A stretch of DNA of 42,163 nucleotides from an uncultured Campylobacterales bacterium. Lineage in GTDB: Bacteria; Campylobacterota; Campylobacteria; Campylobacterales; CAZAFM01. Shown here piece after piece: positions 15,408-33,062 of this stretch. Location of the stretch: the NCBI GenBank assembly GCA_964484395.1, contig CAZAFM010000002.1:1-42163 (forward strand), written 5' to 3'. The first letter of the stretch is position 1, and each line of letters opens with the position of its first letter. The notes under the pieces are model-generated. The model made no database searches and was not told where the DNA came from. It saw nothing but the letters and a program-made list of their open reading frames with translations. A program made the position numbers and the translations under genes.

Positions 15408-15408
15408 A

Positions 15409-18823: not shown

Positions 18824-18856
18824 TATAAAAGCATTAAATCTATTAAGGAGAGGTAG

Positions 18857-19246
18857 ATGACTCATATAGAGACCGCACATCCGTATTTTGGGGTGTTTGT
18901 GTTTTTTGTACTCACTTTTGGTGCATTTTTCGCAACACTTCTTTTGACAAGATTTATCAGTGGAAAGCTAGCTAGAAAAGATACTGAGAAGTTAAAACTA
19001 GCTATGTATGAGTGTGGTCCTGAACCCACGAAACAACCAAACAAAGTTTCGGTTCAGTGGTATATGCTCGCACTTCTATTTATTATATTTGATGTGGAGA
19101 TTATATTTATGTTTCCTTGGGCTGTTGATTTTAAGATACTTGGTTGGTTTGGATTTGCAGCTATGTTTATATTTTTACTACTACTAACTATTGGTTTTGT
19201 ATATGAGTGGAAGAAAGGAGCACTAGAATGGCGCAGCATAAAATAA
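18857..19246 (+). CDS. nuoA: NADH-quinone oxidoreductase subunit A
   Basis: 129 aa with three TM segments and the YECGPEP motif typical of NuoA/ND3. AAGGAGAGG RBS upstream. Confidence 0.92.
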
Positions 19247-19737
19247 ACTACTTTAAAGACAGTGGGCTACCAGTTGTTTTAACAACAGTAGATCACCTCC
19301 TTAATTGGGGTAGAAGTAACTCTTTGTGGGCATTAACCTATGGGCTTGCTTGCTGTGCTATTGAGATGATGGCAAGTGGTGCTAGTAGATATGACTTTGA
19401 TAGGTTTGGTACTATCTTTAGAGCTAGTCCTAGACAATCAGACCTCTTAATTCTCTCAGGTACTCTTACAAAAAAGCACGCTGAGTTCTTAAGAAGACTC
19501 TATGATCAAATGCCAGATCCTAAGTGGGTTATCAGTATGGGAAGTTGTGCAAATACAGGTGGTATGTTTAATACCTATGCAACAGTTCAAGGTGTTGATA
19601 GGATAGTTCCTGTTGATATATATCTTCCTGGATGTGCTCCTAGACCTGAATCACTTCAGTATGCAGTTATGATGCTTCAAAGAAAGATAAGAAGTCAAAA
19701 AGCTTCAAAAAGAGCTCCAGAAAAGAGGTTTGTCTAA
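19228..19737 (+). CDS. nuoB: NADH-quinone oxidoreductase subunit B
   Basis: It carries the [15 protein letters not shown] and LPGCAPRPE motifs (N2 cluster ligands). I prefer the ATG at 19228, which gives MAQHKINYF and has an AAGGAG RBS 8 nt upstream, over the GTG at 19207 from the ORF track. Confidence 0.95.
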
Positions 19738-20540
19738 TGAGAGAGTTTAAGCCAAAAGATAATGTTCAAAAAAAGTCATACTACACTGATAGGTTTTGGG
19801 TTGCACCAAAGGTTCCTAGAGAGAAGCCAGAAGATAGTGAGGTTTTTAGAAGTAATCTTGAAGAGATAAAGTCAATTGTATCCATAAAAGATGCTTTTAT
19901 AGAGCTTGGAAATCTTGTGCTTATAGTTGAGCACCAAGAGCTTCACTCTTGCATAAAAGCTCTAAAAGAGAGACTAAAATATGATATTCTAACAGAAATG
20001 AGTGCAATTGACTATTTAGCTAAATGTGATGGTTTTGAGCTTTTTTATCAAATGCTAAATATACAAAAAGCAAAGAGAGTAAGAGTTAAGTGCTTTTTGC
20101 CAAAAAATCATGCAGGAGAGAGTGTAAGTGATCTTTTTAGATCTGCTGATTGGGCTGAGCGAGAGTGTTATGATATGTTTGGAATAAGATTCAACAATCA
20201 TCCACATCTAAAGCGAATCCTTATGCCTGATGATTGGGAAGGTCATCCACTACTTAAAAGCTACCCACTTCATGGAGATGATTTTGCTCAGTGGTATGAG
20301 GTGGATAAGATATTTGGAAAAGAGCATAGAGAGCTTATTGGACCAGAAAATAGAGATGGCGCATTAATAGATAGATATGATACGCATAGATTTGCTAGGA
20401 TTGGTCATGAAGTTCCTTTTGGAGAGGATATTAGTGAGGGTGAGCCTGATACTGAGATAAGGTATTATGAGGATAAGAGACCTCCATTACTACCTGATTA
20501 CAAGCCTGAAAACTCAAAACAGCTAAAAGTTAGAAAGTAG
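19737..20540 (+). CDS. nuoC: NADH-quinone oxidoreductase subunit C
   Basis: 267 aa with the [15 protein letters not shown] motif. The start overlaps the nuoB stop (TAATG). Confidence 0.93.
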
Positions 20541-20548
20541 GGGAGAAT

Positions 20549-21781
20549 ATGCAACAACCAAATAGACTTGAACCCTTTTATGAAAATATAAATTTTGATA
20601 GAGTTGATAACACTATGGTTGTCAACTTCGGTCCTCAACACCCTTCAGCCCATGGTCAGCTAAGACTAATGCTAGAGCTTGAGGGTGAGCAGGTTATAAA
20701 AGCTTATCCAGATATTGGTTATCTTCACAGAGGTATGGAGAAGATGGCTGAAAATATGATTTATAATGAGTTCCTACCTACTACTGATAGGATGGATTAT
20801 ATTGCAGCTAGCTCTAACAACTACGCCTTTGCTTTAGGAGTTGAGAGGTTACTTGGAATAGAAAATGATATACCAAGACGAGCTAAGATAATAAGAACCA
20901 TGCTTTTGGAGCTAAATAGAATAGCATCTCACCTTTTTTGGCTTGCTACTCATGCACTTGATGTTGGGGCTATGAGTGTTTTTCTTTTTTGCTTTAGAGA
21001 GAGGGAGTTTGTGCTTGATCTTATGGAGGACTATTGTGGAGCTAGGCTTACACACTCTGCAGTAAGAATCGGTGGAGTTCCACTAGATCTTCCTGAAGGG
21101 TGGACTAACCAGCTTAGAGACTACTTGGATAAGTTTCCTGAAGCTATTGCTGATTATGAAGGGTTATTAGATCAAAACCGTATCTGGAGAATGAGACTTG
21201 ATGGAGTTGGTATTTTAACTCCTGATGACGCTAAGAACTGGGCGTGTTCGGGTATTATGCTAAGAGGAAGTGGTATTAAGTGGGATATTAGAAAAGAGGA
21301 GCCTTATGAGCTATATGATGAACTTGATTTTGAGGTTCCAGTAACTGATACTTGTGATAGTTATGGTAGATATAAGCTCTACTTAGAAGAGATGAGGCAA
21401 TCTACAGATATTCTCTATCAGCTTTTAGATATGTATAGTGAAAGTGAGCCTGGACTTATGGCACATGCTCCAAAATATATATCAGCTACTAAAGAGGATA
21501 TGATGACTCAAAACTACTCTTTAATGCAACACTTTGTACTTGTTACTCAAGGTATGAGACCACCTATTGGAGAGGTTTATGCACCTACTGAGTCTCCTAA
21601 GGGAGAGCTTGGGTTTTTTATAAGAAGTGAGGGAGAGCCATATCCATATAGGCTAAAAGTTAGAGCACCTAGCTTTTATCACACTGGACTTTTAAACGAC
21701 CTTCTACCAGGACACTATTTGGCTGATGTTGTAACAATTATCGGTACTACAAATATTGTCTTTGGTGAAGTAGATAGATAG
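20549..21781 (+). CDS. nuoD: NADH-quinone oxidoreductase subunit D
   Basis: 410 aa with [17 protein letters not shown] and the C-terminal GEVDR motif. Confidence 0.97.
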
Positions 21782-21790
21782 GAGTTGATG

Positions 21791-22021
21791 ATGAAAAGGT
21801 TTGATCTTAGACATCTTAAGAGTGATTTTGAAGAGAGAATGAAAGAGCTTTTAAGTCGTGACCTAAAGGACGGTGAAGTTGGTATTTTTATGTTTGAAAT
21901 TGGTGATTTTACGCCTGTGCAAAAAAGTGCTGATACTATCAAAGAGCTAGGTCATGAGCTTCTAAACTCTTTAAAATTCAACGAAGTTGACTGGACTATA
22001 GTTGTAAGGAAGTGCGCTTGA
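21791..22021 (+). CDS. small Cys-poor protein occupying the NuoE position (epsilonproteobacterial NuoE replacement, Cj1575c/HP1264-like by position)
   Basis: The ORF track starts at TTG 21785, followed by tandem ATGs at 21788 and 21791. I chose 21791 for its spacing to the AGGAG at 21780..21784. The product has 76-78 aa and a single Cys (penultimate residue), so it cannot ligate a NuoE-type [2Fe-2S] cluster. It sits between nuoD and the NuoF-position gene. Confidence 0.6.
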   Translation: MKRFDLRHLKSDFEERMKELLSRDLKDGEVGIFMFEIGDFTPVQKSADTIKELGHELLNSLKFNEVDWTIVVRKCA

Positions 22022-24015
22022 GTGCATTTTTGTTTACTGCTTGGAAAGATCAAGTAATAGATAATAGAGGCAAGCCAAAGGAGTCTTGGGAGGAGTGTTC
22101 TTTCAAGCTACCAGCTGACTTTTACGGAGGTACTAAATCTAAAGCCTTTGTAGGTTGGGATGGATTTGCCATTTTTGATGATAGTGTAGATGTTATCAAG
22201 CTCCTAAAAGAGTATGCTCTGCAGTATCAAAACTACTCAGAAGCCTGTGGAAGATGTGCTCCTGGAAGATGGGGTGGACAGGTTTTGCATGATGTGCTTG
22301 ATAAAGTAGCTAGAGGAGAGGGTCAAAGAAGTGATCTTGATCAGCTCAAAAGCTCTTGTAATATGATGAAAGAGACTAGTAAATGCGAGATAGGTAGGAC
22401 TGTTCCTATCTCTATACTTAAAGCTTTGGAGTATTTTAATGATGAATTTGAAAAAGCAATCTCCTCTAAAGCTCCAAGTAGTGGATATGAGAAGGATAGT
22501 AGCTTTTTTAAAGCAAAAGTAACAGCACCTTGTATTGATGCTTGCCCTGCTCATGTTGATATACCAGCATATATTGAGGGTGTGAGGGATTTAAGATATG
22601 ATGACTCTTTGAGGGCAACTAGAAAAACAATGCCTTTAGCTCATACTTGTGGAAGAGTGTGTCCGCATCCTTGTGAGAGTGAGTGTAGACGAGAAAACCT
22701 AGATAGTGCTATTTCTATTATGGAGTTAAAAAGAATTGGGGCTGATTATGAGGATGAGTTTGATAAAAAGTGGCTCCATCCACAAGAACAAAAACCAAGT
22801 AATGGAAAAAAAGTAGCAGTTATAGGTTCAGGTCCTGCTGGTCTAACGGGAGCATATTACTTAGCGCTTGAAGGTGTAGAGTGTGATGTATATGAAGAGC
22901 TTCCAGTTCTAGGTGGTGAAGTAGCAGTTGGAGTTCCAGAATATCGAATGCCTATAGGAAAGTACAATGAAGATATAGAGCTTGTAAAATCAGTTGGTGT
23001 GAACTTTATCACAAATACAAAAGTAGATGCTGAGATGATGAGAGAGCTTGAGAGGAAGTATGATGCAATACTCATAGCCACTGGCACAAGACTGTCTAAA
23101 AAAGTTAGAGCAGAGGGTGAAGACCCAAGCTTGGAGGGCTACTGGCCTGCTATTCCTTTTTTAGATCAGATAAATCTACATGACAAATACGGAATAGGTG
23201 AAGCAGTTGATTTAACCGGAAAAACTATAGTGTGTGTAGGTGGTGGTTTTACATCCATGGATGTTGTTAGATGCTCTATTAGAGCAGGAGCTAAAAGAGT
23301 AGTTATGCTCTATAGAAGAGATGAGAAAACCATCATCAAAAACACCTCTTATGAAGAGTATCATGAAGCTGTAGAAGAGGGTGTTGAGTTTGTTTTTCAG
23401 AGTGCTATAAAAAAGATAAATAGCTCAAATGGAAAGATTGATAGTGTAACTTGTGCAATGTATGAGATGGTCTATCCAGAGGATGGAGGAAGACCTCAGC
23501 TTGTTGAGCTAGAAGGGCATGACTACACTATGGAAGTAGACTTCGTGATACCTGCAGTCTCCCAAGATGCTGATCTCTCTCATATCCCGCAAGAATGGGA
23601 GATAGAGCTAACTAGCTGGAATACAATCAAAACTGATGGAAGAACTTACGCTACAAACAGAGCTGGAATATTTGCAGCAGGTGATTGCGAGTATGGTCCT
23701 ATGACTATTGTAAATGCTGTAGGTCAGGCTAAGAGGGCTGCCTCAGTTATGGCTAGATATCTTCAAAGTGGAGAGCTCACTCTTAGTGATGAAGAGATTA
23801 TGGAAGACAACCTAAGAAAACTCAGAGTTTATGACAAAAATGAAGTAGTTAGAGGATGGCTAAAAGGGCTTTCTAGAGAAGAGAGTGAGAAGCTTGCAGT
23901 AGAGATTAGAAAAGATAATAACCAAGAGGTAAACTTTGGTCTAACAAAAGAGCAAGCCATAGATGAAGCAAATAGATGCATGAGATGCTACTATATTGCG
24001 ATGGTTGAGGTGTAG
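22018..24015 (+). CDS. fusion protein at the NuoF position: NuoF C-terminal-tail-like domain plus GltD/NfnB-like [4Fe-4S]/FAD/NAD(P)H oxidoreductase
   Basis: The ORF track starts at GTG 22012. TTG 22018 has better spacing to the AAGGAAG RBS (22006..22012). The N-terminal region GFAIFDDSVDVIKLLKEYALQYQNYSEACGRCAPGRWGG aligns to the NuoF segment ending in ESCG.C.PCR.G, with the third Cys replaced by Gly. This is followed by CIDACPAHVDIP...CGRVCPHPCESECRR (GltD N-terminal Fe-S domain), VAVIGSGPAGLTGAYYLA (FAD GxGxxG), VCVGGGFTSMDV (second Rossmann fold) and GIFAAGDC. No NuoF FMN/NADH glycine-rich motif is visible. Confidence 0.75.
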   Translation: MSAFLFTAWKDQVIDNRGKPKESWEECSFKLPADFYGGTKSKAFVGWDGFAIFDDSVDVIKLLKEYALQYQNYSEACGRCAPGRWGGQVLHDVLDKVARGEGQRSDLDQLKSSCNMMKETSKCEIGRTVPISILKALEYFNDEFEKAISSKAPSSGYEKDSSFFKAKVTAPCIDACPAHVDIPAYIEGVRDLRYDDSLRATRKTMPLAHTCGRVCPHPCESECRRENLDSAISIMELKRIGADYEDEFDKKWLHPQEQKPSNGKKVAVIGSGPAGLTGAYYLALEGVECDVYEELPVLGGEVAVGVPEYRMPIGKYNEDIELVKSVGVNFITNTKVDAEMMRELERKYDAILIATGTRLSKKVRAEGEDPSLEGYWPAIPFLDQINLHDKYGIGEAVDLTGKTIVCVGGGFTSMDVVRCSIRAGAKRVVMLYRRDEKTIIKNTSYEEYHEAVEEGVEFVFQSAIKKINSSNGKIDSVTCAMYEMVYPEDGGRPQLVELEGHDYTMEVDFVIPAVSQDADLSHIPQEWEIELTSWNTIKTDGRTYATNRAGIFAAGDCEYGPMTIVNAVGQAKRAASVMARYLQSGELTLSDEEIMEDNLRKLRVYDKNEVVRGWLKGLSREESEKLAVEIRKDNNQEVNFGLTKEQAIDEANRCMRCYYIAMVEV

Positions 24016-24016
24016 T

Positions 24017-26269
24017 ATGGAGAAGTTTTCTTTTGTAATAAACAATGAACCTATAGTAGCAACAAAAGGGCAGACTATCCTAGAAGCGGCAAGAGAAGCT
24101 GGAATCTATATACCTACACTATGCTACTTACCAAAGCTAGAGCCTATCTCATCATGTCGATTATGTGTGGTTGAAGTTGAAGGACAAGATGGGTTTGTAC
24201 TTAGCTGTCAAACTCCAGCAATTGAAGGAATAGAGGTTAGGGTAGATAGTGAAGCACTAAAAGAGTATAGGACTCAGATAATGAAGTTTTACTGCATAAA
24301 CCACCCACTTGAATGCGGAGTGTGTGATCAAAGTGGTGAGTGCGGTTTGCAAAATATGACTTTAGAGCTTGGAGTAGATAATCAAGAGTTTATGGCAAAA
24401 GAGAAGAAGAGAGATTTGAGTGATTGGGGGCTTTTGCAGTATGATGAGAGTCTATGTATCTTGTGTGAACGATGTGTTCATACTTGTAATGAGATAATAG
24501 GTGATGATGCTATCAAAATCTCTTATGGTGGCTACTCTTCAAAGATAGTTCCTTATAATGGCGAGAGCTTGGAGTGTAGTGATTGTGGTGAGTGTGCTGA
24601 GGTCTGTCCTGTAGGAGCGATTATTGTCAAAGACTTTCAGTATAGCTCAAATGCGTGGGAGTTAGATAAGATAGATTCAACTTGTGCTCATTGCTCAAAT
24701 GGATGCTATATAGAGTATGAAGTAAAGCAAGAGGGTACACTTAATAAAGATAGTTATAAAATCTACAGAACTGCATCTGATGCAGATTTCTCATATCTCT
24801 GCGGTGCAGGTAGATTTGGCTATGACTTTGAGAATAGAGCCTCTAAAGATAGTTCAGCTTTTAGTAACGCTCTAGAAGCCTTCAAAAAAGCAGATACTAT
24901 AGCCTTTGATAGCTATATCACTAATGAAGAAGCTTTGATTTTACAAAAACTAAAAGAGAAGCTAGGAGTTAAGCTAGTAAACAAAGATGCACTAGCCTAT
25001 CAAAACTTCTTAAAAGAGTTTAGCTTAAAATCTAAAAAAAGCCTATATGATGGGGATTTAGAAGATATAAAAAGATCAGGTCTAGTAGTTCAAGTAGGTT
25101 CAAGAAGTAGGGATAATCACCCTGGAATTAGATACGCTATAAATGAAGCTATAAAAAAGCAAGGAGCCCTCTTTGTTGATTGTCACCCAGTAGAAGATAC
25201 TGAGATAGAGAAGTCACTGCATATCAAATATGAAGCAGGTTGCGAAGAAGCCCTCATAGCACTTATTGCAAAAGCAGTAGTTTCAAAAGATAGTAGCACT
25301 CAGAGCTTTTTTGACGCACTTGATGTTGGATATTTGCAGGCTGAAGCCAATATATCTGAAAAAGAGATAGAAAGAGTAGAAAAAGAGTATAAAAAAAGAA
25401 CTCACAAAACCCTAATAATAGGCTCTGACCTCTACACTCACAAAAGATCAAAAAACATAGCCAAACTAGTAGGTCTTATAGAAGCAAATAGTGACTTTAA
25501 AGTAATACTAATACCAACCTCTACTAACACTCTTGGAGTATCATTAATATGTGATTTAGACAAAGAAGAGGGAAGCTATACTGTAGGTTATAATGTAGAA
25601 GGAGACTTCAAACTCTCCTCTTTAGGAGATGGTGAGCTTGATATGCCAGCTCTAAATCAACAAGAGGGAACATTTACTAATATAGACAAAAGAGTAGTAA
25701 AACTAAACCCCGCCCTACCATATAGTGGATATGAGCTAAATGATATAGCAAAAGCTCTAGGTTTAACTAACAAACACACTATAGATTATACAAAAGAGCT
25801 TCCAGAAGCTAAGGGGTATAAATCTATAGAGTTTGACCAACTTCCTAACTCATTTTTAAATAATGGAAAAGAGGATAGAGGATATCTACTACAAAACATA
25901 GATTGCCCAAGTGAAGAAAACTCCTCAATAGAGCCAATAGAAGAGCTAGAAGAGTATAATGGAACAATTATATATCTATCAAACCCAATACTGCAGTTTA
26001 ATAGATATACGGCAAAGGCTAGTACACTTAAAGGCGGTGGTGATATACTAAGAGCCTCAAAACAGTTTATGGTAGCTGCAAAACTTCAGAGTGAAGGAGT
26101 TGTAAGACTTGAAGGTGAAGGTGTAAAAAGAGAGATAAGGTTAGAGGTTGATGACTCTTTAAAAGGAACTATCGCTCTTTTTCCACATTTTGATGATCCA
26201 AGTTTAGATGGAGAGTATAAGTACAAAAGAGTAGAAATTACAAATTTATCGGTGGGTAGAGATGAGTAA
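24017..26269 (+). CDS. nuoG: NADH-quinone oxidoreductase subunit G paralog 1
   Basis: I prefer the ATG at 24017 (MEKFSFVINNEP), 1 nt after the upstream stop, over the TTG at 23996. It has a [2Fe-2S] motif (CYLPKLEPISSCRLCVVEV...C), the His-ligated cluster motif NHPLECGVCDQSGEC, CILCERCVHTC, CSDCGECAEVCPVGA and CAHCSNGC...C (N7-like). A molybdopterin-oxidoreductase-like C-terminal half follows. Confidence 0.85.
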   Translation: MEKFSFVINNEPIVATKGQTILEAAREAGIYIPTLCYLPKLEPISSCRLCVVEVEGQDGFVLSCQTPAIEGIEVRVDSEALKEYRTQIMKFYCINHPLECGVCDQSGECGLQNMTLELGVDNQEFMAKEKKRDLSDWGLLQYDESLCILCERCVHTCNEIIGDDAIKISYGGYSSKIVPYNGESLECSDCGECAEVCPVGAIIVKDFQYSSNAWELDKIDSTCAHCSNGCYIEYEVKQEGTLNKDSYKIYRTASDADFSYLCGAGRFGYDFENRASKDSSAFSNALEAFKKADTIAFDSYITNEEALILQKLKEKLGVKLVNKDALAYQNFLKEFSLKSKKSLYDGDLEDIKRSGLVVQVGSRSRDNHPGIRYAINEAIKKQGALFVDCHPVEDTEIEKSLHIKYEAGCEEALIALIAKAVVSKDSSTQSFFDALDVGYLQAEANISEKEIERVEKEYKKRTHKTLIIGSDLYTHKRSKNIAKLVGLIEANSDFKVILIPTSTNTLGVSLICDLDKEEGSYTVGYNVEGDFKLSSLGDGELDMPALNQQEGTFTNIDKRVVKLNPALPYSGYELNDIAKALGLTNKHTIDYTKELPEAKGYKSIEFDQLPNSFLNNGKEDRGYLLQNIDCPSEENSSIEPIEELEEYNGTIIYLSNPILQFNRYTAKASTLKGGGDILRASKQFMVAAKLQSEGVVRLEGEGVKREIRLEVDDSLKGTIALFPHFDDPSLDGEYKYKRVEITNLSVGRDE
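24800..25048 (+). repeat. 249-bp block, 100% identical to 27108..27356
   Basis: I compared the two copies base by base. The block is in frame in both nuoG paralogs and encodes CGAGRFGYDFENRASKDSS...SLKSKKSLY. The flanking sequence is diverged on both sides. Confidence 0.95.
25404..26023 (+). repeat. 620-bp block identical to 27862..28481 except for one synonymous mismatch
   Basis: I compared the two copies base by base at an offset of 2458 nt. The only difference I found is 26005 A versus 28463 G (AGA versus AGG, both Arg). The block is in frame in both paralogs (KTLIIGSDLYTHKRSK...NRYTAKAS). Confidence 0.93.
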
Positions 26270-28718
26270 AGTTACAATTCATATTGATGGAAGACCAATA
26301 GAGTGCAATGAGGGTGAGTATGTCCTTGATGTTGCAAGAGGTGAGGGGATATTTATTCCAGCTATATGCTATCTAAATAGATGTTCTCCAAGTCTAGCTT
26401 GCAGGATATGTATGGTAGAGAGTGATGGTAAGAGTGTGTATGCATGTAATGCAAAAGCAAAAGATGGCATGAATATTACAGTATCTACTCCTGAGATTGA
26501 GGAGGAGAGACGAAATATTATGGAAGTGTATGACATTAACCATCCTCTTCAGTGTGGAGTATGTGATCAAAGTGGTGAGTGTGAGCTTCAAAACTACACT
26601 CTAGAGATGGGAGTAGAAACCCAAAACTTTAGCATTCAAGACACTGCTAGACCAACAAAGGAGTGGAGTGATTTTATTACTTATGACTCATCGTTGTGTA
26701 TAGTATGTGAGAGATGTACTACAGTCTGTAAAGATATGGTAGGTGACATGGCTCTAAAAACCATACCTAGGGGTGGTGAGCAACTAGATAAAGGACTAAA
26801 AGAGACTCTTAGTAAAGATCTCTTTGCTATGTGGAATAAGATGCAAAAGTCCATAATAGGTCCTGTAAGTGGTGAGCGTTTGGAGTGTAGTGATTGTGGT
26901 GAGTGCATATCTGTATGTCCTGTGGGAGCTATTAGTAGTAGTGGTTTTAGCTACAGCTCAAACGCGTGGGAGCTAGAGAAAACACCTAGTGCTTGTGCGC
27001 ACTGCTCTATAGCATGCTTGCTAAACTATGAGACAAAACACACTTCAGTAAGTAATAGTAGACCTAAAATCTATAGGGTAACTAATGATTTTGCCTTTCA
27101 ATCTCTTTGCGGTGCAGGTAGATTTGGCTATGACTTTGAGAATAGAGCCTCTAAAGATAGTTCAGCTTTTAGTAACGCTCTAGAAGCCTTCAAAAAAGCA
27201 GATACTATAGCCTTTGATAGCTATATCACTAATGAAGAAGCTTTGATTTTACAAAAACTAAAAGAGAAGCTAGGAGTTAAGCTAGTAAACAAAGATGCAC
27301 TAGCCTATCAAAACTTCTTAAAAGAGTTTAGCTTAAAATCTAAAAAAAGCCTATATAGTGCCTCTTTAGAAGATGTTTATAATGCAGATTTCACAGTAGT
27401 AGTTGGTTCAAACCTTAAAAGTGATGCGCCAATACTTAAATATGCACTAAATAACTCTTTGAAAATCAACAAGGCTGCTAGTGCTTATTTTCACACCTTA
27501 AAAGACGCACAAATAGAATCAACCTCTAAAAATCTCTCCTCTTTTACCTATCTGCCAAACCAAGAGGAGAAGCTACTCTATCTTCTTGCAGATTCATTCA
27601 TAGAGGAAGATAGAAAGCCAACTGAGCTAAAAGAGCAAACAGATAAGTTTAAATCTAAAAAAATAAAGCAGACAGAAGAGAAGATAAAAGAGAAGATAAA
27701 AGAGGTAGTAGAGGTAGATGGTGAGAGTAAAGAGGTAGAAAAAGTAGTCGAAAAAACTATCACAAAAGAGGTAGAGTACATTCACAACTCCCTACTTGAT
27801 ACCCTAAATATTTCTCATACTGACTTTGCTACCTTACTATCTACATTGAGTAAAAAAGAGAACAAAACCCTAATAATAGGCTCTGACCTCTACACTCACA
27901 AAAGATCAAAAAACATAGCCAAACTAGTAGGTCTTATAGAAGCAAATAGTGACTTTAAAGTAATACTAATACCAACCTCTACTAACACTCTTGGAGTATC
28001 ATTAATATGTGATTTAGACAAAGAAGAGGGAAGCTATACTGTAGGTTATAATGTAGAAGGAGACTTCAAACTCTCCTCTTTAGGAGATGGTGAGCTTGAT
28101 ATGCCAGCTCTAAATCAACAAGAGGGAACATTTACTAATATAGACAAAAGAGTAGTAAAACTAAACCCCGCCCTACCATATAGTGGATATGAGCTAAATG
28201 ATATAGCAAAAGCTCTAGGTTTAACTAACAAACACACTATAGATTATACAAAAGAGCTTCCAGAAGCTAAGGGGTATAAATCTATAGAGTTTGACCAACT
28301 TCCTAACTCATTTTTAAATAATGGAAAAGAGGATAGAGGATATCTACTACAAAACATAGATTGCCCAAGTGAAGAAAACTCCTCAATAGAGCCAATAGAA
28401 GAGCTAGAAGAGTATAATGGAACAATTATATATCTATCAAACCCAATACTGCAGTTTAATAGGTATACGGCAAAGGCTAGTGAGCTTAGTAGTGAACTAT
28501 ATCTATCTATCTCAAAGACTCTTGCAGAGGAGCTTGGTGTAGAGAGTAAAGATGTGCTAACCCTAAGTAGTGAGGGCGGCAGTATAAGTTTAGAGTGTGT
28601 AGTAGATAGCTCTCTTGTTAATAGTGCGGTTTTAGTTCCAGATTTTATTCAATCTAAAGATATTGATACTCTTTTTAAACAGAGTAGATATATCAAAGCA
28701 GACATAAGGAAGGTGTGA
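26262..28718 (+). CDS. nuoG: NADH-quinone oxidoreductase subunit G paralog 2
   Basis: 818 aa with the same full set of Fe-S motifs as paralog 1 (CYLNRCSPSLACRICMVE, NHPLQCGVCDQSGEC, CIVCERCTTVC, CSDCGECISVCPVGA, CAHCSIAC). The N-terminal 290 aa are only moderately similar to paralog 1. It contains a K/E-rich insertion and overlaps paralog 1 by 8 nt. Confidence 0.85.
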   Translation: MSKVTIHIDGRPIECNEGEYVLDVARGEGIFIPAICYLNRCSPSLACRICMVESDGKSVYACNAKAKDGMNITVSTPEIEEERRNIMEVYDINHPLQCGVCDQSGECELQNYTLEMGVETQNFSIQDTARPTKEWSDFITYDSSLCIVCERCTTVCKDMVGDMALKTIPRGGEQLDKGLKETLSKDLFAMWNKMQKSIIGPVSGERLECSDCGECISVCPVGAISSSGFSYSSNAWELEKTPSACAHCSIACLLNYETKHTSVSNSRPKIYRVTNDFAFQSLCGAGRFGYDFENRASKDSSAFSNALEAFKKADTIAFDSYITNEEALILQKLKEKLGVKLVNKDALAYQNFLKEFSLKSKKSLYSASLEDVYNADFTVVVGSNLKSDAPILKYALNNSLKINKAASAYFHTLKDAQIESTSKNLSSFTYLPNQEEKLLYLLADSFIEEDRKPTELKEQTDKFKSKKIKQTEEKIKEKIKEVVEVDGESKEVEKVVEKTITKEVEYIHNSLLDTLNISHTDFATLLSTLSKKENKTLIIGSDLYTHKRSKNIAKLVGLIEANSDFKVILIPTSTNTLGVSLICDLDKEEGSYTVGYNVEGDFKLSSLGDGELDMPALNQQEGTFTNIDKRVVKLNPALPYSGYELNDIAKALGLTNKHTIDYTKELPEAKGYKSIEFDQLPNSFLNNGKEDRGYLLQNIDCPSEENSSIEPIEELEEYNGTIIYLSNPILQFNRYTAKASELSSELYLSISKTLAEELGVESKDVLTLSSEGGSISLECVVDSSLVNSAVLVPDFIQSKDIDTLFKQSRYIKADIRKV
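27108..27356 (+). repeat. second copy of the 249-bp identical block (partner 24800..25048)
   Basis: See the partner feature. The offset between copies is 2308 nt. Confidence 0.95.
27862..28481 (+). repeat. second copy of the 620-bp block (partner 25404..26023)
   Basis: See the partner feature. The offset between copies is 2458 nt, with one mismatch. Confidence 0.93.
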
Positions 28719-29707
28719 TGGAAGGTTACATAATTGGTACAATAATCAAAGTCTTAATAATCCTACTTGTCTTTTCAGCAGTTGCTGGATTTTTGACATA
28801 TATGGAGAGGAAAGTATTGGCATTTATGCAAAGAAGGTTAGGACCTACTGTTGTTGGACCCTTTGGTGTGCTTCAGATACTAGCTGATGGTATAAAGCTA
28901 GCTACAAAAGAGGATATAGTTCCTCAGAATGCTTTAAAACCTGTCTTCTTGTTTGCTCCAATTATTACAGCAGCTACAGCATTTATTGCGATGGCACCTA
29001 TTCCATTCTTCCCTGAGTTTGAGATGTTTGGAATTACGGTTAGACCTATTGTTGCTGATATTAATGTGGCTTTACTTTTTGTTTTTGGTGTAGCTGCAGT
29101 TGGTATTTATGGGATTTTACTAGGTGGTTTGGCATCTAATAACAAATGGTCACTTCTTGGAGCTGCTAGGGCTACTATTCAGCTTCTTAGCTTTGAGATT
29201 ATCTCAGGATTATCAATTTTGGCTCCAATTATGATTATAGGCTCACTCTCATTGATTGACATCAATAATCATCAAGATGGTGGGATTTTCTCTTGGCTTA
29301 TATGGCAACAGCCTGTTGCATTTATCCTATTCCTAATAGCTGGGTATGCTGAGACAAATAGGACTCCATTTGACCTTCTTGAGCATGAAGCTGAGATTAT
29401 TGCAGGGTATGGAACTGAGTACTCTGGGATGAGATGGGGTATGTTTTTTATAGGGGAGTATGCAAACCTTATAACATTAGCATTTTTAGCCAGCCTCATA
29501 TTTTTGGGTGGGTTTAACCCTCTTTGGTTTATTCCTGGAGGTATAGCAATACTTCTTAAGGTTTTCTTTTTCTTGTTTTTGTTTATGTGGGTAAGGGCTG
29601 CATGGCCACACATAAGACCAGATCAGCTTATGTGGTTGTGCTGGAAGGTGCTAATGCCAATAGCTTTGGTGAATATACTAATAACTGGCCTAGTGCTGAT
29701 GATATAA
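28718..29707 (+). CDS. nuoH: NADH-quinone oxidoreductase subunit H
   Basis: It has the [14 protein letters not shown] motif, is polytopic, and has an EYS/GM.W..FF..EY region. The ORF begins GTG-ATG (28715/28718). I chose the ATG, which overlaps the nuoG2 TGA. Confidence 0.95.
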
Positions 29708-29717
29708 GGAGAGATTG

Positions 29718-30305
29718 ATGAGTATAGAGTATAAGCACATAGATATAAACCCTTCTCCTAAAAAGCCATGGCAGCAGTTCATGCAGGTTATGAGTAGAAC
29801 CTTTAAAAGAGAGCTTTTTGTAGGATTGGGGATTGTTTTTAGAGAGATGGTAAAAAGAGGCAACTCACACGCAACGCAGTATCCAAAAGAGAAGCTTCCT
29901 ATAAGTCCAAGATATAGAGCTATACATGAGCTACTAAGACTATTAGAGAGTGGACATGAGAGATGCATTGGGTGTGGACTTTGCGAGAAGATATGTATAA
30001 GTAACTGTATCAGAATGGACACTCACAAGGGTGAGGATGGAAGGAAAAAGATTAGTGAATATACAATTAACTTTGGTAGGTGTATTTTTTGTGGTTACTG
30101 TGCTGAGGTTTGCCCAGAGCTTGCTATTGTTCATGGTGGGAGATATGAAAATGCAAGTGAGCAAAGAGCGCACTTTGGACTTAAAGAGGATATGTTAACA
30201 CCAATTGATATGTTTAAAAACGGTTCACAAAAAGAGTTCCCTGGATTTGGTGCACCAAGTCCTGATGCTGATTCTAGAATCAAAAAAACGCCACTGGCAT
30301 ACTAA
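29718..30305 (+). CDS. nuoI: NADH-quinone oxidoreductase subunit I
   Basis: It has two ferredoxin-type motifs, [11 protein letters not shown] and [12 protein letters not shown]. The ORF begins TTG-ATG (29715/29718). I chose the ATG. Confidence 0.95.
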
Positions 30306-30315
30306 GGATTGAAAT

Positions 30316-30906
30316 ATGTATGAAACTATAGCTTTTTATATTTTTGGAGCCCTCAGTGCAGCGATGTTCTTGATGACGGTCACTACCAAAAATGTCATTT
30401 ACGCCTTAAGTACACTTGCTGCTGGAATGATTTTTATATCAGCTTTTTTCTTTCTTTTAGATGCTGAGTTTTTAGGGGTTGTTCAGATAGTCGTCTATAC
30501 AGGAGCTGTTATGGCACTATATGCATTTGGTATGATGTTTTTTGATACTATCAAAGATGTTGATGAAAAGGTAGAAAATCCAAGGCAACTCTTCTTATAT
30601 ACTGGTCTTTCAGCTCTTATGATTGTACTTATCTTTTCAGCACCTATTATTGGTGATAATCTAATTACGCAAAATCCTATACCTGAAGATATGGGAAATA
30701 TTGAAGCTATTGGACTTGTGATTTTTACTAAGTATCTAGTTCCTTTTGAGCTTGCAGCTGTGATGCTTCTAGTGGCTATGATTGCTGGTATTATCTTGGC
30801 TGGTAAAAAGATGGATCAGAGTCTTACACTAATGTGTGAAGAGGATGAGAACATAGAAAAAGATGACTACATCAAGGTTAAAAAACACAAAGGAGCAGCT
30901 AAATGA
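30316..30906 (+). CDS. nuoJ: NADH-quinone oxidoreductase subunit J
   Basis: 196 aa and hydrophobic, with five predicted TM segments. The VVYTGAVM motif and its position between nuoI and nuoK support the call. Confidence 0.9.
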   Translation: MYETIAFYIFGALSAAMFLMTVTTKNVIYALSTLAAGMIFISAFFFLLDAEFLGVVQIVVYTGAVMALYAFGMMFFDTIKDVDEKVENPRQLFLYTGLSALMIVLIFSAPIIGDNLITQNPIPEDMGNIEAIGLVIFTKYLVPFELAAVMLLVAMIAGIILAGKKMDQSLTLMCEEDENIEKDDYIKVKKHKGAAK

Positions 30907-31205
30907 TAACACTTCATCACTACCTCTTTTTGAGCGCACTCCTCTTTTTTATAGGGGTGTTTGGAGTTCTAAGAAGAAAAAACTTACTGCTGCTCTTTTT
31001 TGCAACAGAGATTATGCTAAATGCGGTAAATATAGGCTTTGTAGCACTATCTCACTATATGTTTGACTTAACTGGGCAGATTTTTGCGTTTTTCATCATT
31101 GCGGTTGCTGCTTCTGAAGTTGCTGTTGGTTTGGGACTTGTCATACTCTGGTATAAGAGAAAAGGCACACTAGACCTAGATACTCTAAAAAGCATGAACG
31201 GATAA
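30903..31205 (+). CDS. nuoK: NADH-quinone oxidoreductase subunit K
   Basis: 100 aa with three TM segments and the AA.E.A.GL motif (VAASEVAVGLGLV). It overlaps nuoJ by ATGA. Confidence 0.95.
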   Translation: MITLHHYLFLSALLFFIGVFGVLRRKNLLLLFFATEIMLNAVNIGFVALSHYMFDLTGQIFAFFIIAVAASEVAVGLGLVILWYKRKGTLDLDTLKSMNG

Positions 31206-31214
31206 AGGATAGAT

Positions 31215-33050
31215 ATGGAGTTACTAGTATATATTGCACTTTTTTCACCACTCCTAGGAGCGATAATAGCGGGTGCTTTTGGTACAAGACCTAAAATAAC
31301 AGCACTAGGTGTGATAAACTCAGCGCTTTTAGGTCTATCTTTTGTATCTACGCTTATTCTTTTTATTTTTGTGGTGCAGGGTTTTAAGTTTGAGACGGTA
31401 CTTTTTGAGTGGATAGCAACTGGAGGTCTATATATTCCTTTTGGATTTGTAGTTGATCAAGTAAGTGGAACTATGATGCTTGTAGTAACTCTTGTTTCTA
31501 CATGTGTTCATATCTACTCAATTGGATATATGGAGCATGACAAAGGCTACAACAGATATTTCTCATATTTATCGGCATTTGTTTTTTCAATGATGGTTCT
31601 TGTTATGAGTGATAACTTCGCGGGACTATTTATAGGCTGGGAAGGTGTTGGTCTTTGCTCTTGGCTTCTTATAGGTCACTGGTATGATAGGGATAGTGCA
31701 TCTTGGGCTGCAAATGAAGCGTTTATTATGAACCGTGTGGCTGACCTTGGGATGCTTTTTGGTATGTTTATCATCTACTGGACATTTGGAACACTACAGT
31801 ATAATGAGGTTTTTGCTCAAGTAGATGGGGCAAATGGTTATGTGTTAACCTTAATAGCAGTTTTCTTGTTTATTGGTGCTATGGGTAAATCAGCTCAGTT
31901 TCCTTTTCATACATGGCTTGCTGATGCGATGGAGGGTCCAACTCCAGTCTCAGCACTAATCCACGCCGCTACTATGGTAACAGCTGGTGTTTACTTAGTT
32001 ATAAGATCATTTGAGATATTTGCTCTAACACCTGAGGTGTCTATGTTTATCGCCTATCTTGGAGCATTTGTTGCTATATTTGCAGCATCTATGGCATTAG
32101 TAAATGATGATTTAAAAAGAATTATTGCTTATTCAACTCTTTCACAGTTAGGATATATGTTTGTGGCAGCTGGAATAGGTGCATACTGGATAGCGCTTTT
32201 CCACCTTATGACTCATGCATTTTTCAAATCCCTTCTTTTCTTAGGAGCTGGAAATGTAATGCATGCTATGCATGATAAGCTTGATATAAAAAAGATGGGA
32301 CAACTATATAAGCCTATGAGATGGACAGCTATTTTGATGATTATAGCTTCACTTGCCCTTGCTGGTATCTATCCATTTGCAGGCTTCTTCTCAAAAGATT
32401 TGATACTTGAAGAGGCATTTACTGGAAGCCACTTTATACTGTGGTTAATCCTTTGGGTTGCTGCTGGTATGACGGCATTTTATAGTTTTAGACTTATTAT
32501 GCTTGTCTTCTTTGGTGGTAAAAACCACAATGACCATCCACATGAAGCACACAACTATGTACTTTGGGCGATGGTACCACTTGCAGTCTTGGCAGTTATT
32601 GCAGGCTTTTTTCAGCATCCATTTTTTGAGTATGTGCAAAAGGTGCTACCGGGCAATCGTAATATGATAGATAGTACGACCTTTGCTGTACTTGTAGCTC
32701 TGGCTCTTACTATGGGTGTTGGTGGTACACTCATAGCCATATTTAAGTACAAAAAACCATACAATAATGACAAGCCTAGAGGCTTCTTATATAGACTGTT
32801 AAAAAATCAGTACTACATACCATCTTTTTATGAAGAGAGTATTACAAAGCCATACTTTAGGCTATCAAGATTTGCTTGGAAAGAGATTGATATGAGGATT
32901 GTGGATGCTACGGTTGACTTTATTGCTACTTTTATCTACAGAAGCGGTGACAAAGCAAGGGTTATGCAAAGTGGTAATCTTTCACTGATGTTAAGATGGA
33001 TGGCTTTAGGTCTAATATTTATCTTAATACTTGCATACACATTTAGGTAA
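31215..33050 (+). CDS. nuoL: NADH-quinone oxidoreductase subunit L
   Basis: 611 aa antiporter-like subunit with WEGVGLCSWLLIGHWY, KSAQFPFHTWL and PTPVSALIHAATMV motifs. Confidence 0.96.
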   Translation: MELLVYIALFSPLLGAIIAGAFGTRPKITALGVINSALLGLSFVSTLILFIFVVQGFKFETVLFEWIATGGLYIPFGFVVDQVSGTMMLVVTLVSTCVHIYSIGYMEHDKGYNRYFSYLSAFVFSMMVLVMSDNFAGLFIGWEGVGLCSWLLIGHWYDRDSASWAANEAFIMNRVADLGMLFGMFIIYWTFGTLQYNEVFAQVDGANGYVLTLIAVFLFIGAMGKSAQFPFHTWLADAMEGPTPVSALIHAATMVTAGVYLVIRSFEIFALTPEVSMFIAYLGAFVAIFAASMALVNDDLKRIIAYSTLSQLGYMFVAAGIGAYWIALFHLMTHAFFKSLLFLGAGNVMHAMHDKLDIKKMGQLYKPMRWTAILMIIASLALAGIYPFAGFFSKDLILEEAFTGSHFILWLILWVAAGMTAFYSFRLIMLVFFGGKNHNDHPHEAHNYVLWAMVPLAVLAVIAGFFQHPFFEYVQKVLPGNRNMIDSTTFAVLVALALTMGVGGTLIAIFKYKKPYNNDKPRGFLYRLLKNQYYIPSFYEESITKPYFRLSRFAWKEIDMRIVDATVDFIATFIYRSGDKARVMQSGNLSLMLRWMALGLIFILILAYTFR

Positions 33051-33062
33051 GGAGAGTAGAGA

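What the first reader, a model, noticed from the sequence alone, without database searches (positions are those of the whole stretch)
21791..24015. Complex I operon with a non-canonical electron-input module: a Cys-poor mini-protein plus a NuoF-tail::GltD-like flavoprotein fusion in place of NuoE/NuoF
In a canonical nuo operon, nuoE ([2Fe-2S]) and nuoF (FMN, NADH site, N3 [4Fe-4S]) lie between nuoD and nuoG.

Here the nuoE slot encodes a protein of about 77 aa with a single Cys. The nuoF slot encodes a protein of about 665 aa. Its first ~170 aa resemble only the C-terminal tail of NuoF. The rest is a full GltD/NfnB/SudA-type module: the Fe-S domain CIDACP...CGRVCPHPCESECRR, the FAD motif GSGPAGL, a second Rossmann fold GGGFTSMD, and GIFAAGDC.

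Campylobacter and Helicobacter are known to lack NuoEF. They carry two unrelated proteins instead (Cj1575c/Cj1574c, HP1264/HP1265), and flavodoxin is proposed as the electron donor. Fusing the Cj1574c-position protein to a pyridine-nucleotide/FAD oxidoreductase would give this complex I an FAD-based NAD(P)H site instead of the FMN site.

GltD-like NfnB is a bifurcating flavoprotein. The module could therefore couple NAD(P)H with a low-potential carrier, or support reverse electron flow in a chemolithoautotroph. That last point is inference.
Basis: partly seen in the sequence, partly recalled or inferred. Interest (0 to 1): 0.8.

Follow-up and report, generated by a model that had tools for sequence, protein, structure and literature searches.

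The report
NADPH-type input module of complex I
In this sulfur-bacterium-like genome, the respiratory complex I operon replaces its usual NADH-binding subunits with a small iron-free protein and a truncated NuoF fused to an NADPH/FAD enzyme; the arrangement is real and conserved, but it has already been described and its function has never been tested in the laboratory.

Summary
Between nuoD and two nuoG copies lie two genes. One encodes a 76-aa protein of the HP1264 family (PF16514). The other encodes a 665-aa protein with four parts: the NuoF C-terminal four-helix bundle only (no FMN/NADH domain), a GltD-type two-cluster Fe-S domain, FAD and NADPH Rossmann folds, and a C-terminal CxxC element.

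The fusion is not an artefact. More than 100 homologues have the same length and architecture. The gene sits in the same operon slot in 64 of 75 assessable Campylobacterota loci.

It is not new. McNichol and Sievert (bioRxiv 2019) described the Sulfurimonas orthologue Suden_1824 as an NfnB homologue replacing NuoF. They proposed reverse electron flow to NADP+ and ferredoxin.

New details from this work:
- The fusion is an N-terminally truncated NuoF::GltD and shows no similarity to the short F-slot family of other Campylobacterota (to which Cj1574c is assumed, untested, to belong).
- Its Fe-S domain is circularly permuted, as in StnC/NfnABC.
- The N3 motif has lost its third Cys in all Campylobacterota copies.
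- The same fusion sits in nuo operons of Thermodesulfobacteriota.

The most likely function is an FAD-based NADP(H) site of a reversible, proton-motive-force-coupled quinone oxidoreductase. Bifurcation remains speculative.

The parts
18857..21781 (+). nuoA, nuoB, nuoC and nuoD (18857-19246, 19207-19737, 19737-20540, 20549-21781)
   Evidence: Pfam Oxidored_q4, Oxidored_q6, Complex1_30kDa and Complex1_49kDa. Promoter-like sites lie at 18749-18826, upstream of nuoA (weak evidence).
21791..22021 (+). E' gene: a 76-aa protein in the NuoE slot. It belongs to the HP1264/Cj1575c family and has no Fe-S ligands (one non-conserved Cys).
   Evidence: PF16514 NADH-UOR_E at 5.7e-39. 60% identity to PDB 2lxr. 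A GGAG ribosome-binding site lies 6 nt upstream of the ATG.
22018..24015 (+). F' gene: a 665-aa truncated NuoF::GltD fusion. The start is probably TTG 22018, overlapping the E' stop as TTGA; the ORF is open from GTG 22012.
   Evidence: AlphaFold2 model with pLDDT 88 and pTM 0.88.
22018..22521 (+). F' N-terminal domain: a remnant of the NuoF SLBB end plus the four-helix bundle that normally carries cluster N3. The motif is CGRCAPG...C, with the third Cys replaced by Gly.
   Evidence: NADH_4Fe-4S at aa 76-148. nuoF_fam positions 295-410 of 410. Alignments to the NuoF-like chains HydB, HoxF and NfnB. Gly in 32/32 Campylobacterota copies against Cys in 18/18 Thermodesulfobacteriota copies.
22522..22758 (+). 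F' Fer4_20 core, with six Cys: C174, C178, C213, C217, C221 and C225 (ORF numbering).
   Evidence: Pfam Fer4_20 model positions 29-110. The Cys are invariant in 120 sequences.
22807..23730 (+). F' FAD and NADP(H) Rossmann domains: GSGPAGL, PEYRMP, GGGFTSMD, LYRRDE and GIFAAGDC.
   Evidence: Pyr_redox_2 at 5.8e-26. Alignment to NfnB 4ylf_B and to 9bov_A. Foldseek top hits are 9bov_A, 9n5u_A, 8oh5_C, 5jca_L and 4ylf_B.
23911..23991 (+). F' C-terminal element. It is the first 28 positions of the Fer4_20 domain, including RCMRC (C656, C659), displaced to the C-terminus by circular permutation.
   Evidence: The C-terminal 75 aa alone hit Fer4_20 positions 2-28 (1.2e-4). An artificial re-joined sequence matches positions 2-110 in one stretch at 94.5 bits, against 68.5 bits for the core alone. 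The order is the same as in StnC/9bov_A.
24017..26269 (+). nuoG1: the NuoG paralogue that co-occurs with F'.
   Evidence: NCBIfam PRK08493 NuoG, plus Fer2_4, NADH-G_4Fe-4S_3 and Fer4_Nqo3. It is the closer of the two paralogues to the single NuoG of the Thermodesulfobacteriota operons (220 against 177 bits).
26262..28718 (+). nuoG2: the NuoG paralogue shared with operons that lack F'.
   Evidence: PRK08493 over its full length at 1132 bits. Where the single NuoG of an F'-less locus is visible, it is more G2-like.
28715..36058 (+). nuoH, I, J, K, L, M and N.
   Evidence: Pfam NADHdh, Fer4, Oxidored_q3, Oxidored_q2 and three Proton_antipo_M hits. A terminator-like hairpin lies at 36078-36095.

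Best explanation
The 665-aa protein (F') is the nucleotide-binding subunit of a non-canonical complex I. The FMN/NADH half of NuoF has been lost, and a GltD/NfnB-type FAD flavoprotein specific for NADP(H) has taken its place.

Proposed electron path (inferred): NADPH, then FAD, then the two [4Fe-4S] clusters of the permuted Fer4_20 domain, then the retained NuoF four-helix bundle (N3 site), then the NuoG clusters, NuoI, NuoB and finally menaquinone.

The retained NuoF tail is the piece that docks on NuoG in canonical complex I. The 76-aa E' protein is a cofactor-less structural stand-in for NuoE.

The enzyme would be a reversible NADPH:menaquinone oxidoreductase coupled to the proton-motive force. 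In a chemolithoautotroph of the Sulfurovum/Sulfurimonas type it would run mainly backwards, from quinol to NADP+, to supply reductant for CO2 fixation.

Shown: the domain content, the conservation of ligands and motifs, the operon position and its conservation. Inferred: physical attachment to the complex, the electron path and the direction of flow.
For: Architecture and cofactor motifs:
- Domain architecture and absence of the FMN domain.
- Eight invariant Cys for two clusters.
- Invariant GxGxxG, PEYR and YRR motifs in 120 Campylobacterota sequences and across 50 sequences from two phyla.

Relatives:
- The best sequence and fold matches are NADPH-binding GltD domains of StnC/NfnABC, NfnB, GltD and DPD.
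- Recombinant StnC binds FAD and oxidises NADPH, passing electrons down a linear cluster chain (PMC7483475, PMC10482914).

Operon context:
- The gene overlaps or abuts its neighbours: TTGA with E', and 1 nt before nuoG1.
- It occupies the nuoD-nuoG slot in 64 of 75 assessable Campylobacterota loci.
- It occupies the same slot in 3 loci from two Thermodesulfobacteriota operons. No other N-module subunit is encoded in those operons, although one of the two (L083) has an adjacent divergent NuoE/NuoF::GltD/NuoG-like cluster.

Literature:
- The same reading was published for Suden_1824.
Against: - No biochemical data exist for any member of the family.
- The N3 motif has only three Cys in every Campylobacterota copy. 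The cluster that should bridge the GltD module to NuoG may be altered or absent.
- Two NuoG paralogues and the E' protein are not explained by a simple NADPH site.
- The relative SfrAB of Geobacter is reported to be soluble (my own knowledge, plus a UniRef name for P0040). Attachment to the membrane complex is therefore not guaranteed.
- NADPH rather than NADH specificity rests on sequence motifs only.
Confidence: 0.6

Rival explanations
1. Dual-output complex I (the McNichol and Sievert model). Driven by the proton-motive force, the complex takes electrons from two menaquinols and reduces both NADP+ (at F') and ferredoxin or flavodoxin. The second site would be a NuoG paralogue or the E' side. 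The mechanism would resemble bifurcation or confurcation.
For: - Homology of F' to the bifurcating NfnB, with the Arg of PEYR conserved.
- Two NuoG paralogues and an E' protein of the family linked to flavodoxin-dependent complex I in C. jejuni.
- Co-occurrence pattern: F' comes with NuoG1, and E' comes with a NuoG2-like subunit. This suggests two merged modules.
- These organisms have no known route to reduced ferredoxin for the rTCA cycle.
Against: - In the closest solved homologues (StnC-type GltD domains) the FAD does not bifurcate, although the same Arg is present.
- No NfnA-like second exit path from the FAD is encoded in the operon.
- The Thermodesulfobacteriota operons have F' with one NuoG and no E', so F' itself does not need the extra parts.
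- The energetics are borderline (my estimate).
Confidence: 0.2
2. F' and NuoG1 form a separate soluble SfrAB-like NADPH:acceptor (ferredoxin) oxidoreductase. It is merely co-encoded with complex I, whose own peripheral arm uses E' and NuoG2.
For: - F' and NuoG1 are gained and lost together. Where the NuoG of an operon lacking F' is visible, it is a single G2-like subunit.
- UniRef names a homologue 'NADPH-Fe(3+) oxidoreductase', that is, SfrB-like.
- SfrB is listed among GltD-like relatives.
Against: - In the Thermodesulfobacteriota operons the only NuoG follows F' directly and no alternative input module is encoded in the operon itself.
- F' keeps exactly the NuoF part that contacts NuoG in complex I.
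- Translational coupling within the operon implies stoichiometric co-production.
Confidence: 0.12
3. The long ORF is an artefact: two genes joined by a sequencing or assembly error, or a decaying pseudogene.
For: None, apart from the unusual architecture. The window does contain suspicious identical tracts in nuoG1 and nuoG2, but these lie outside F'.
Against: - More than 100 homologues of 664-669 aa at 66-76% identity have the same domain order.
- 64 independent loci carry the same single ORF.
- 255 of 667 positions are invariant.
- The single-chain model is confident, with pTM 0.88.
Confidence: 0.01

Closest known systems
Suden_1824-type NuoF replacement of chemoautotrophic Campylobacterota complex I (McNichol and Sievert, bioRxiv 10.1101/717884; noted earlier by Weerakoon and Olson 2008)
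   Same: Same operon slot, same two-NuoG context and same NfnB/GltD homology with the NADPH motif. Sulfurimonas loci in my survey carry the same gene, with about 50% identity in the N-terminal domain and about 70% in the GltD part.
   Different: Only the lineage differs. The closest database homologue is 76% identical, and the window appears to come from an uncultured relative of Sulfurovaceae. Function is untested in every member.
GltD-like domain of StnC / NfnABC (PDB 8oh5_C, 9bov_A, 9n5u_A)
   Same: Best sequence match (E = 1e-84) and best fold match (E = 4e-44). The Fer4_20 domain has the same circularly permuted order, with the RCxxC element after the flavin domains. The site is an NADPH/FAD site that feeds a chain of Fe-S clusters towards NuoG- and NuoF-like modules.
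   Different: In Stn the GltD module is inserted into a NuoG-like protein. It works with an FMN-containing full-length NuoF homologue in a soluble bifurcating enzyme. Here it is fused to a NuoF tail without FMN and is encoded inside a membrane complex I operon.
NfnB / SudA / GltD (PDB 4ylf_B, 5jca_L, 6s6s)
   Same: FAD and NADPH folds, eight Cys for two [4Fe-4S] clusters, and the YRR and PEYR motifs.
   Different: No NfnA or GltB partner is present. The first Fer4_20 element is moved to the C-terminus. There is an extra N-terminal NuoF tail.
Canonical NuoF (Nqo1, 51-kDa subunit)
   Same: The C-terminal four-helix bundle (NADH_4Fe-4S), with the first, second and fourth N3 Cys.
   Different: It lacks the FMN/NADH Rossmann-like domain. 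The third N3 Cys is Gly.
Flavodoxin-dependent complex I of Campylobacter and Helicobacter (Cj1575c/Cj1574c, HP1264/HP1265)
   Same: The E-slot protein is the same family (60% identity to HP1264).
   Different: The F slot differs. The short F-slot proteins of related genera resemble the C-terminal half of NuoG and show no similarity to F'. I could not obtain Cj1574c or HP1265 themselves.
Full-length NuoF::GltD fusions (for example the 826-aa protein at L083 1066-3546, next to NuoE- and NuoG-like genes)
   Same: Collinear alignment across the NuoF-tail/GltD junction: 33% identity and E = 6e-103 over 560 residues.
   Different: These proteins keep the Complex1_51K and SLBB domains. F' looks like their N-terminally truncated derivative.

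Membership tests
Campylobacterota non-canonical complex I F-slot fusion (Suden_1824 type) | Encoded between the NADH-UOR_E gene and the first of two nuoG genes in a nuo operon | tested here: met
   The same order is seen in 64 of 75 assessable related loci.
Campylobacterota non-canonical complex I F-slot fusion (Suden_1824 type) | About 665 aa with NADH_4Fe-4S + Fer4_20 + Pyr_redox_2 and no Complex1_51K | tested here: met
   119 homologues of 650-690 aa share the architecture.
Campylobacterota non-canonical complex I F-slot fusion (Suden_1824 type) | Direct similarity to Suden_1824 itself | not tested
   The sequence was not in hand. Sulfurimonas spp. loci (L041, L046, L063, L068) carry the homologue.
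Canonical NuoF | FMN/NADH-binding Complex1_51K domain | tested here: not met
   No hit at E <= 0.01 in Pfam. nuoF_fam aligns only its last 115 positions.
Canonical NuoF | Four Cys ligands of cluster N3 (CxxCxxC...C) | tested here: not met
   The motif is CGRCAPG...C, with the third Cys replaced by Gly in 32/32 Campylobacterota sequences. It is Cys in 18/18 Thermodesulfobacteriota homologues.
GltD / NfnB / SudA flavoprotein family | Fer4_20 domain with eight Cys for two [4Fe-4S] clusters | tested here: met
   All eight Cys are invariant. The domain is split: model positions 30-110 lie at aa 171-249 and positions 2-28 lie at aa 634-660.
GltD / NfnB / SudA flavoprotein family | FAD GxGxxG fold and an NADPH fold with the phosphate-binding YRR motif | tested here: met
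   GSGPAGL, GGGFTSMD and LYRRDE are invariant. The fold match to 4ylf_B and 5jca_L has target-normalised TM-scores (TMt) of 0.76-0.79.
GltD / NfnB / SudA flavoprotein family | A partner subunit (NfnA or GltB) that provides the second electron path needed for bifurcation | tested here: not met
   None is encoded in the operon (18857-36058). The flanking ORFs I scanned code for flagellar hook and Maf-like proteins, an AAA ATPase and a TPR/DUF7494 protein. The rest of the genome was not seen.
GltD / NfnB / SudA flavoprotein family | Electron-bifurcating FAD | not testable with these tools
   The Arg of PEYR is conserved in both bifurcating NfnB and non-bifurcating StnC, so sequence cannot decide.
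Stn / NfnABC StnC-type GltD insertion | Permuted order: Fer4_20 core, then flavin domains, then the RCxxC element | tested here: met
   Collinear alignment of aa 170-660 to 9bov_A residues 100-567. Re-joining test.
Stn / NfnABC StnC-type GltD insertion | GltD module embedded in a NuoG-like polypeptide and partnered with an FMN-containing NuoF homologue | tested here: not met
   NuoG1 and NuoG2 are separate genes. No Complex1_51K protein is encoded in the operon.
SfrB of Geobacter SfrAB (NADPH-dependent soluble reductase) | Sequence similarity to SfrB and pairing with an SfrA (NuoG/FdhA-like) subunit | not tested
   This is only a lead. UniRef names homologue P0040 'NADPH-Fe(3+) oxidoreductase'.
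Short F-slot protein family of other Campylobacterota (assumed, not verified, to include Cj1574c/HP1265) | Sequence similarity to the short F-slot proteins | tested here: not met
   Sulfurospirillum P0469 against F': best E = 2.1. The same protein against NuoG1: E = 1e-24.
NADH-UOR_E (HP1264/Cj1575c) family, for the 76-aa protein | Full-length match to PF16514 | tested here: met
   5.7e-39 over positions 1-74 of 74. 2lxr_A at 1.1e-26.

The most novel reading that the evidence does not exclude
A cross-phylum class of complex I, found in Campylobacterota and Thermodesulfobacteriota, has an N-module that is a truncated NuoF::GltD FAD flavoprotein. In Campylobacterota this class has merged with the E'/NuoG2 module of the flavodoxin-type enzyme. 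The merged machine would use the proton-motive force to push quinol electrons simultaneously onto NADP+ and ferredoxin or flavodoxin. That would be the missing source of low-potential reductant for the rTCA cycle in sulfur-oxidising autotrophs. The invariant Cys-to-Gly change in the N3 motif would be part of the re-wiring.
Probability: 0.2. Interest if true: 0.85.

Novelty: new member of a known kind. Interest (0 to 1): 0.45.

Why it matters
How rTCA-cycle Campylobacterota obtain NADPH and reduced ferredoxin from sulfur compounds is an open question. These bacteria are major primary producers at vents, seeps and redoxclines.

This operon is the leading candidate for the answer, and it is conserved across the group. 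Showing that complex I can carry an FAD/NADPH site instead of the FMN/NADH site would widen the known modularity of the enzyme. It would also change the energy budgets used to model chemosynthetic carbon fixation.

The locus in this window adds no new principle beyond the published hypothesis. The comparative details found here give concrete handles for experiments:
- the truncated-NuoF origin of the fusion;
- the permuted Fe-S domain;
- the three-Cys N3 site;
- the pairing of F' with NuoG1;
- the presence of the fusion in Thermodesulfobacteriota.

Tried and rejected
1. Fetching Cj1574c/HP1265. No tool gave these sequences. I used the short F-slot proteins of related loci and a Sulfurospirillum homologue as proxies. 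The link to Cj1574c itself remains an assumption.

2. Reading the S. denitrificans genome paper by a guessed PMC id. The paper is not held.

3. Literature searches combining nuoF, gltD and Epsilonproteobacteria, or nuoF, nuoE, Sulfurimonas and glutamate synthase, found nothing. A later search found only the 2019 preprint.

4. The genome-contig scan with the E' alignment returned only the 80 closest loci, all relatives of Sulfurovum, Sulfurimonas and Nitratifractor. Helicobacter and Campylobacter operons were not sampled.

5. I wanted Cys-to-Cys distances between the N3 site and the Fer4_20 clusters from the AlphaFold model. Coordinates are not exposed, so the electron path could not be checked geometrically.

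6. A spare Cys (C116) as a fourth N3 ligand is rejected. It is Ser in 64% of homologues.

7. A sequencing-error fusion is rejected on the comparative evidence.
Full report
**What is in the sequence**

The + strand of the window carries a compact 15-gene nuo operon (18857-36058). The order is nuoA, B, C, D, a 76-codon gene, a 665/667-codon gene, two nuoG paralogues, then nuoH through nuoN. Neighbouring genes abut or overlap:
- 9 nt lie between nuoD and the small gene;
- the small gene's stop and the probable TTG start of the large gene overlap as TTGA;
- 1 nt separates the large gene's stop from the nuoG1 ATG;
- nuoG1 and nuoG2 overlap by 8 nt, and nuoG2 and nuoH by 4 nt.

Promoter-like sites precede nuoA, and a terminator-like hairpin follows nuoN (weak evidence). 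Co-transcription is therefore very likely, although it was not measured.

**The small protein (E')**

It matches Pfam PF16514 'NADH-UOR_E' over its whole length (5.7e-39). It is 60% identical to the H. pylori protein solved as PDB 2lxr. It has one Cys, at position 75, and that Cys is not conserved. It cannot hold the [2Fe-2S] cluster of NuoE.

**The large protein (F')**

Numbering is from GTG 22012.
- aa 33-150 align to the last 115 positions of NuoF models. These cover the end of the SLBB domain and the four-helix bundle that holds cluster N3 (NADH_4Fe-4S, 7e-20).
- No Complex1_51K (FMN/NADH) domain is detectable.
- aa 171-249 are a Fer4_20 domain.
- aa 266-573 are the FAD and NAD(P)H Rossmann folds of the GltD/NfnB family.

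**The fusion is not an artefact**

A search of 5.8 billion proteins gave more than 4,500 hits. The best 120 are almost all 664-669 aa, 66-76% identical, and share the same Pfam architecture. They come from Hydrogenimonas, Nitrosophilus and many Campylobacterota MAGs. In an alignment of 120 sequences, 255 of 667 positions are invariant. An AlphaFold2 model built on 50 sequences is confident as a single unit, with pLDDT 88 and pTM 0.88.

**Synteny**

I scanned one genome per species with the E' protein. More than 576 loci matched, and the 80 closest were fetched.
- Of 75 loci long enough to judge, 64 have the order nuoC, nuoD, E', F', nuoG1 (and nuoG2 where the locus reaches it), as in the window.
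- Eleven lack F'. In six of these (L018, L048, L051, L060, L074, L080) a single NuoG that is closer to G2 is followed directly by nuoH. L027 and L049 show a G2-like NuoG, but the contig ends before nuoH. The other three contigs end earlier.
- In those loci the F slot is empty or holds a 281-450-aa protein. That protein resembles the C-terminal, non-Fe-S half of NuoG. Several Sulfurovum loci also have a divergent 335-aa Pyr_redox_3 flavoprotein gene there.

**F' is not a 'Cj1574c-type protein plus flavoprotein'**

The short F-slot family reaches Sulfurospirillum (P0469, 245 aa; JGI labels some members 'subunit F').
- P0469 aligns to NuoG1 residues 353-505 and 632-742 (E = 1e-24).
- It shows nothing against F' (best E = 2.1).

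F' residues 31-587 instead align collinearly, across the NuoF-tail/Fer4_20 junction, with residues 262-800 of an 826-aa protein (E = 6e-103). That protein has Complex1_51K + SLBB + NADH_4Fe-4S + Fer4_20 + Pyr_redox_2. F' is best described as an N-terminally truncated NuoF::GltD.

I could not obtain Cj1574c or HP1265 themselves. Their membership of the short family is an assumption.

**Relation to solved structures**

By sequence, the best PDB matches for aa 170-660 are:
- 9bov_A (1.2e-84);
- NfnB 4ylf_B (3.8e-77);
- 9n5u_A and StnC 8oh5_C (about 1e-74).

By fold, the best four matches are the GltD-like domains of NfnABC/StnABC. NfnI-L, NfnB, Xfn, GltD and DPD follow.

**The Fer4_20 domain is circularly permuted**

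HMMER aligned F' aa 629-659 to NfnB residues 12-42, which lie in front of the rest of the domain in NfnB. I tested this in three ways:
- the C-terminal 75 aa alone hit Fer4_20 model positions 2-28 (1.2e-4);
- the internal part hits positions 30-110 (68.5 bits);
- an artificial sequence joining the C-terminal element to the internal part matches positions 2-110 in one stretch (94.5 bits).

The first two of the eight cluster Cys (RCMRC, C656/C659) therefore sit at the extreme C-terminus, as in StnC-type proteins. All eight Cys are invariant.

**The N3 site is altered**

The canonical motif ESCGKCxPCRxG...C reads SEACGRCAPGRWGG...C in F'. The third Cys is Gly in 32 of 32 Campylobacterota sequences. 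It is Cys in 18 of 18 Thermodesulfobacteriota homologues. A nearby Cys (C116) is not conserved. I cannot tell whether the site binds a three-Cys cluster, a cluster with a non-Cys ligand, or nothing. The published description of Suden_1824 comments only on the NfnB-like ligands.

**Wider distribution**

I searched 1.84 billion representative proteins with the N-terminal 170 aa. This found many 650-685-aa proteins at 30-42% identity with the NuoF tail at residue 2-4 and the same overall architecture. A follow-up search showed they are abundant in Thermodesulfobacteriota, 'Deltaproteobacteria' and Syntrophaceae MAGs.

In three loci from two such operons the gene lies between nuoD and a single nuoG (whole or split) in a full nuo operon. 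Those operons have no NuoE or E' gene. One of them sits next to a divergent cluster that encodes a NuoE-like protein, the full-length NuoF::GltD and a short NuoG-like protein. The single NuoG of these operons is closer to the window's NuoG1 than to NuoG2 (220 against 177 bits).

Together with the co-occurrence pattern above, this suggests two units. F'+NuoG1 would be one ancestral unit. E'+NuoG2 would be the unit shared with flavodoxin-type operons. This is inference.

**What is already published**

McNichol and Sievert (bioRxiv 10.1101/717884) state the following:
- Suden_1824 replaces NuoF in S. denitrificans;
- it is homologous to T. maritima NfnB (33% identity);
- it keeps the NADP(H)-phosphate residues and the cluster Cys;
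- the arrangement, with two NuoG, is universal in Sulfurimonas and Sulfurovum.

They propose that complex I runs in reverse to reduce NADP+ and ferredoxin together. They credit Weerakoon and Olson (2008) with first noting the non-canonical NuoEF and the duplicated NuoG. In the held library I found no biochemical or structural study of the enzyme.

**Mechanism**

The simplest reading is an FAD-based NADP(H) site wired into the complex I cluster chain. This would give a reversible, proton-motive-force-coupled NADPH:menaquinone oxidoreductase.

My own estimate from standard potentials:
- Taking menaquinol at about -75 mV and cellular NADP+/NADPH at about -370 mV (the latter value from PMC10482914), the gap is about 0.3 V per electron.
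- That gap can be paid by 4 H+ per 2 e- at a normal proton-motive force.
- Ferredoxin at -450 to -500 mV cannot be reached on the same stoichiometry. The dual-output model is therefore energetically tight.

The bifurcation idea inherits from NfnB. In the closer StnC homologue, however, the FAD was shown not to bifurcate. It delivers electrons one at a time along a linear cluster chain, even though the 'bifurcation' Arg is conserved. F' has that Arg (PEYRMP), but no NfnA-type second exit is encoded.

My probabilities:
- about 0.6 for the plain NADP(H) module;
- about 0.2 for dual NADP+/ferredoxin output;
- about 0.12 for a soluble SfrAB-like enzyme made of F' and NuoG1;
- about 0.01 for an artefact.

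**Verdict**

The finding is real and was read accurately. Its central idea is a rediscovery of a published, still untested hypothesis, so interest is moderate. The window's copy is a new, fairly divergent member: the closest homologue is 76% identical, and the nearest loci are MAGs labelled Sulfurovum, Nitratifractor or 'Campylobacteraceae'.

The incremental results here sharpen what an experiment should look for:
- the truncated-NuoF origin;
- the permuted Fe-S domain;
- the clade-specific three-Cys N3 motif;
- the F'/NuoG1 pairing;
- the Thermodesulfobacteriota operons.

Noticed in passing
window 24800-25048 = 27108-27356 and 25404-26004 = 27862-28462: nuoG1 and nuoG2 share two exactly identical DNA tracts of 249 bp and 601 bp. 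The rest of the two genes is about 60-80% identical or cannot be aligned at the DNA level. None of the 80 related loci has any direct exact repeat of 40 nt or more, although nuoG2 is only partly covered in those loci. This points to recent gene conversion between the tandem paralogues, or to an assembly chimera.
   Followed up: partly
L018 6001-11589; also L048, L051, L060, L080, L012, L038: A second type of nuo operon occurs in Sulfurovum. It has E' with a Lys/Glu/Ala-rich C-terminal tail and a divergently transcribed 330-340-aa Pyr_redox_3 flavoprotein (YpdA/TrxR-like). In most of these loci a roughly 447-aa protein resembling the non-Fe-S C-terminal half of NuoG follows. Where the contig reaches it, there is a single G2-like NuoG. 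There is no F' fusion.
   Followed up: partly
L081 5161-17971, L082, L083 5110-17953: Thermodesulfobacteriota/Syntrophaceae MAGs carry nuoA-B-C-D, then the truncated NuoF::GltD fusion (650-656 aa, canonical four-Cys N3 motif), then nuoG-H-I-J-K-L-M. They have no NuoE or E' gene. I did not find this described in the papers I searched.
   Followed up: partly
L083 145-4530 (- strand): A cluster lies divergent from that nuo operon. It encodes a NuoE-like 2Fe-2S thioredoxin-like protein (154 aa), an 826-aa full-length NuoF fused to Fer4_20 + Pyr_redox_2, and a 247-aa NuoG N-terminal-like protein. It is a possible soluble relative or ancestor of the F' module.
   Followed up: partly
protein P0125 (962 aa): This F' homologue has an insertion of about 300 aa of low-complexity sequence (Ser/Asn/Gln/Lys-rich) between the NuoF tail and the Fer4_20 domain. 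The linker therefore tolerates large insertions.
   Followed up: no
L032 5989-6786, L035 5992-6819, L024, L037, L039, L043, L047: In many Sulfurovum loci the ORF that contains E' extends to about 200-275 codons. The window's copy is the minimal 76 aa. Where I read the sequence (L018, L057, L080) the extension is Lys/Glu/Ala-rich. The distance from the end of the E' match to the start of F' ranges from 5 to 594 nt.
   Followed up: no
F' residues C408, C421 (ORF numbering; window 23233-23235, 23272-23274): Two Cys in the NADPH Rossmann fold (VCVGGG and VVRCS) are invariant in Campylobacterota copies. In Thermodesulfobacteriota copies they are Val/Ala and Ser. Their role is unknown. They arise in the same clade that lost the third N3 Cys.
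   Followed up: no
window 10723-18576 and 36105-38450: The flanks of the operon encode a flagellar hook protein FlgE (10723-12894), a Maf/MptE-like protein (12901-14859), an AAA ATPase with a winged-helix domain (16846-18576) and, downstream, a DUF7494/TPR protein (36105-38450). None has an obvious link to the nuo genes.
   Followed up: no
protein P0001: The database copy of the window's own F' protein is only 538 aa (81% of the length), on a 21.9-kb contig. Another assembly of this organism probably breaks inside or near the gene.
   Followed up: no
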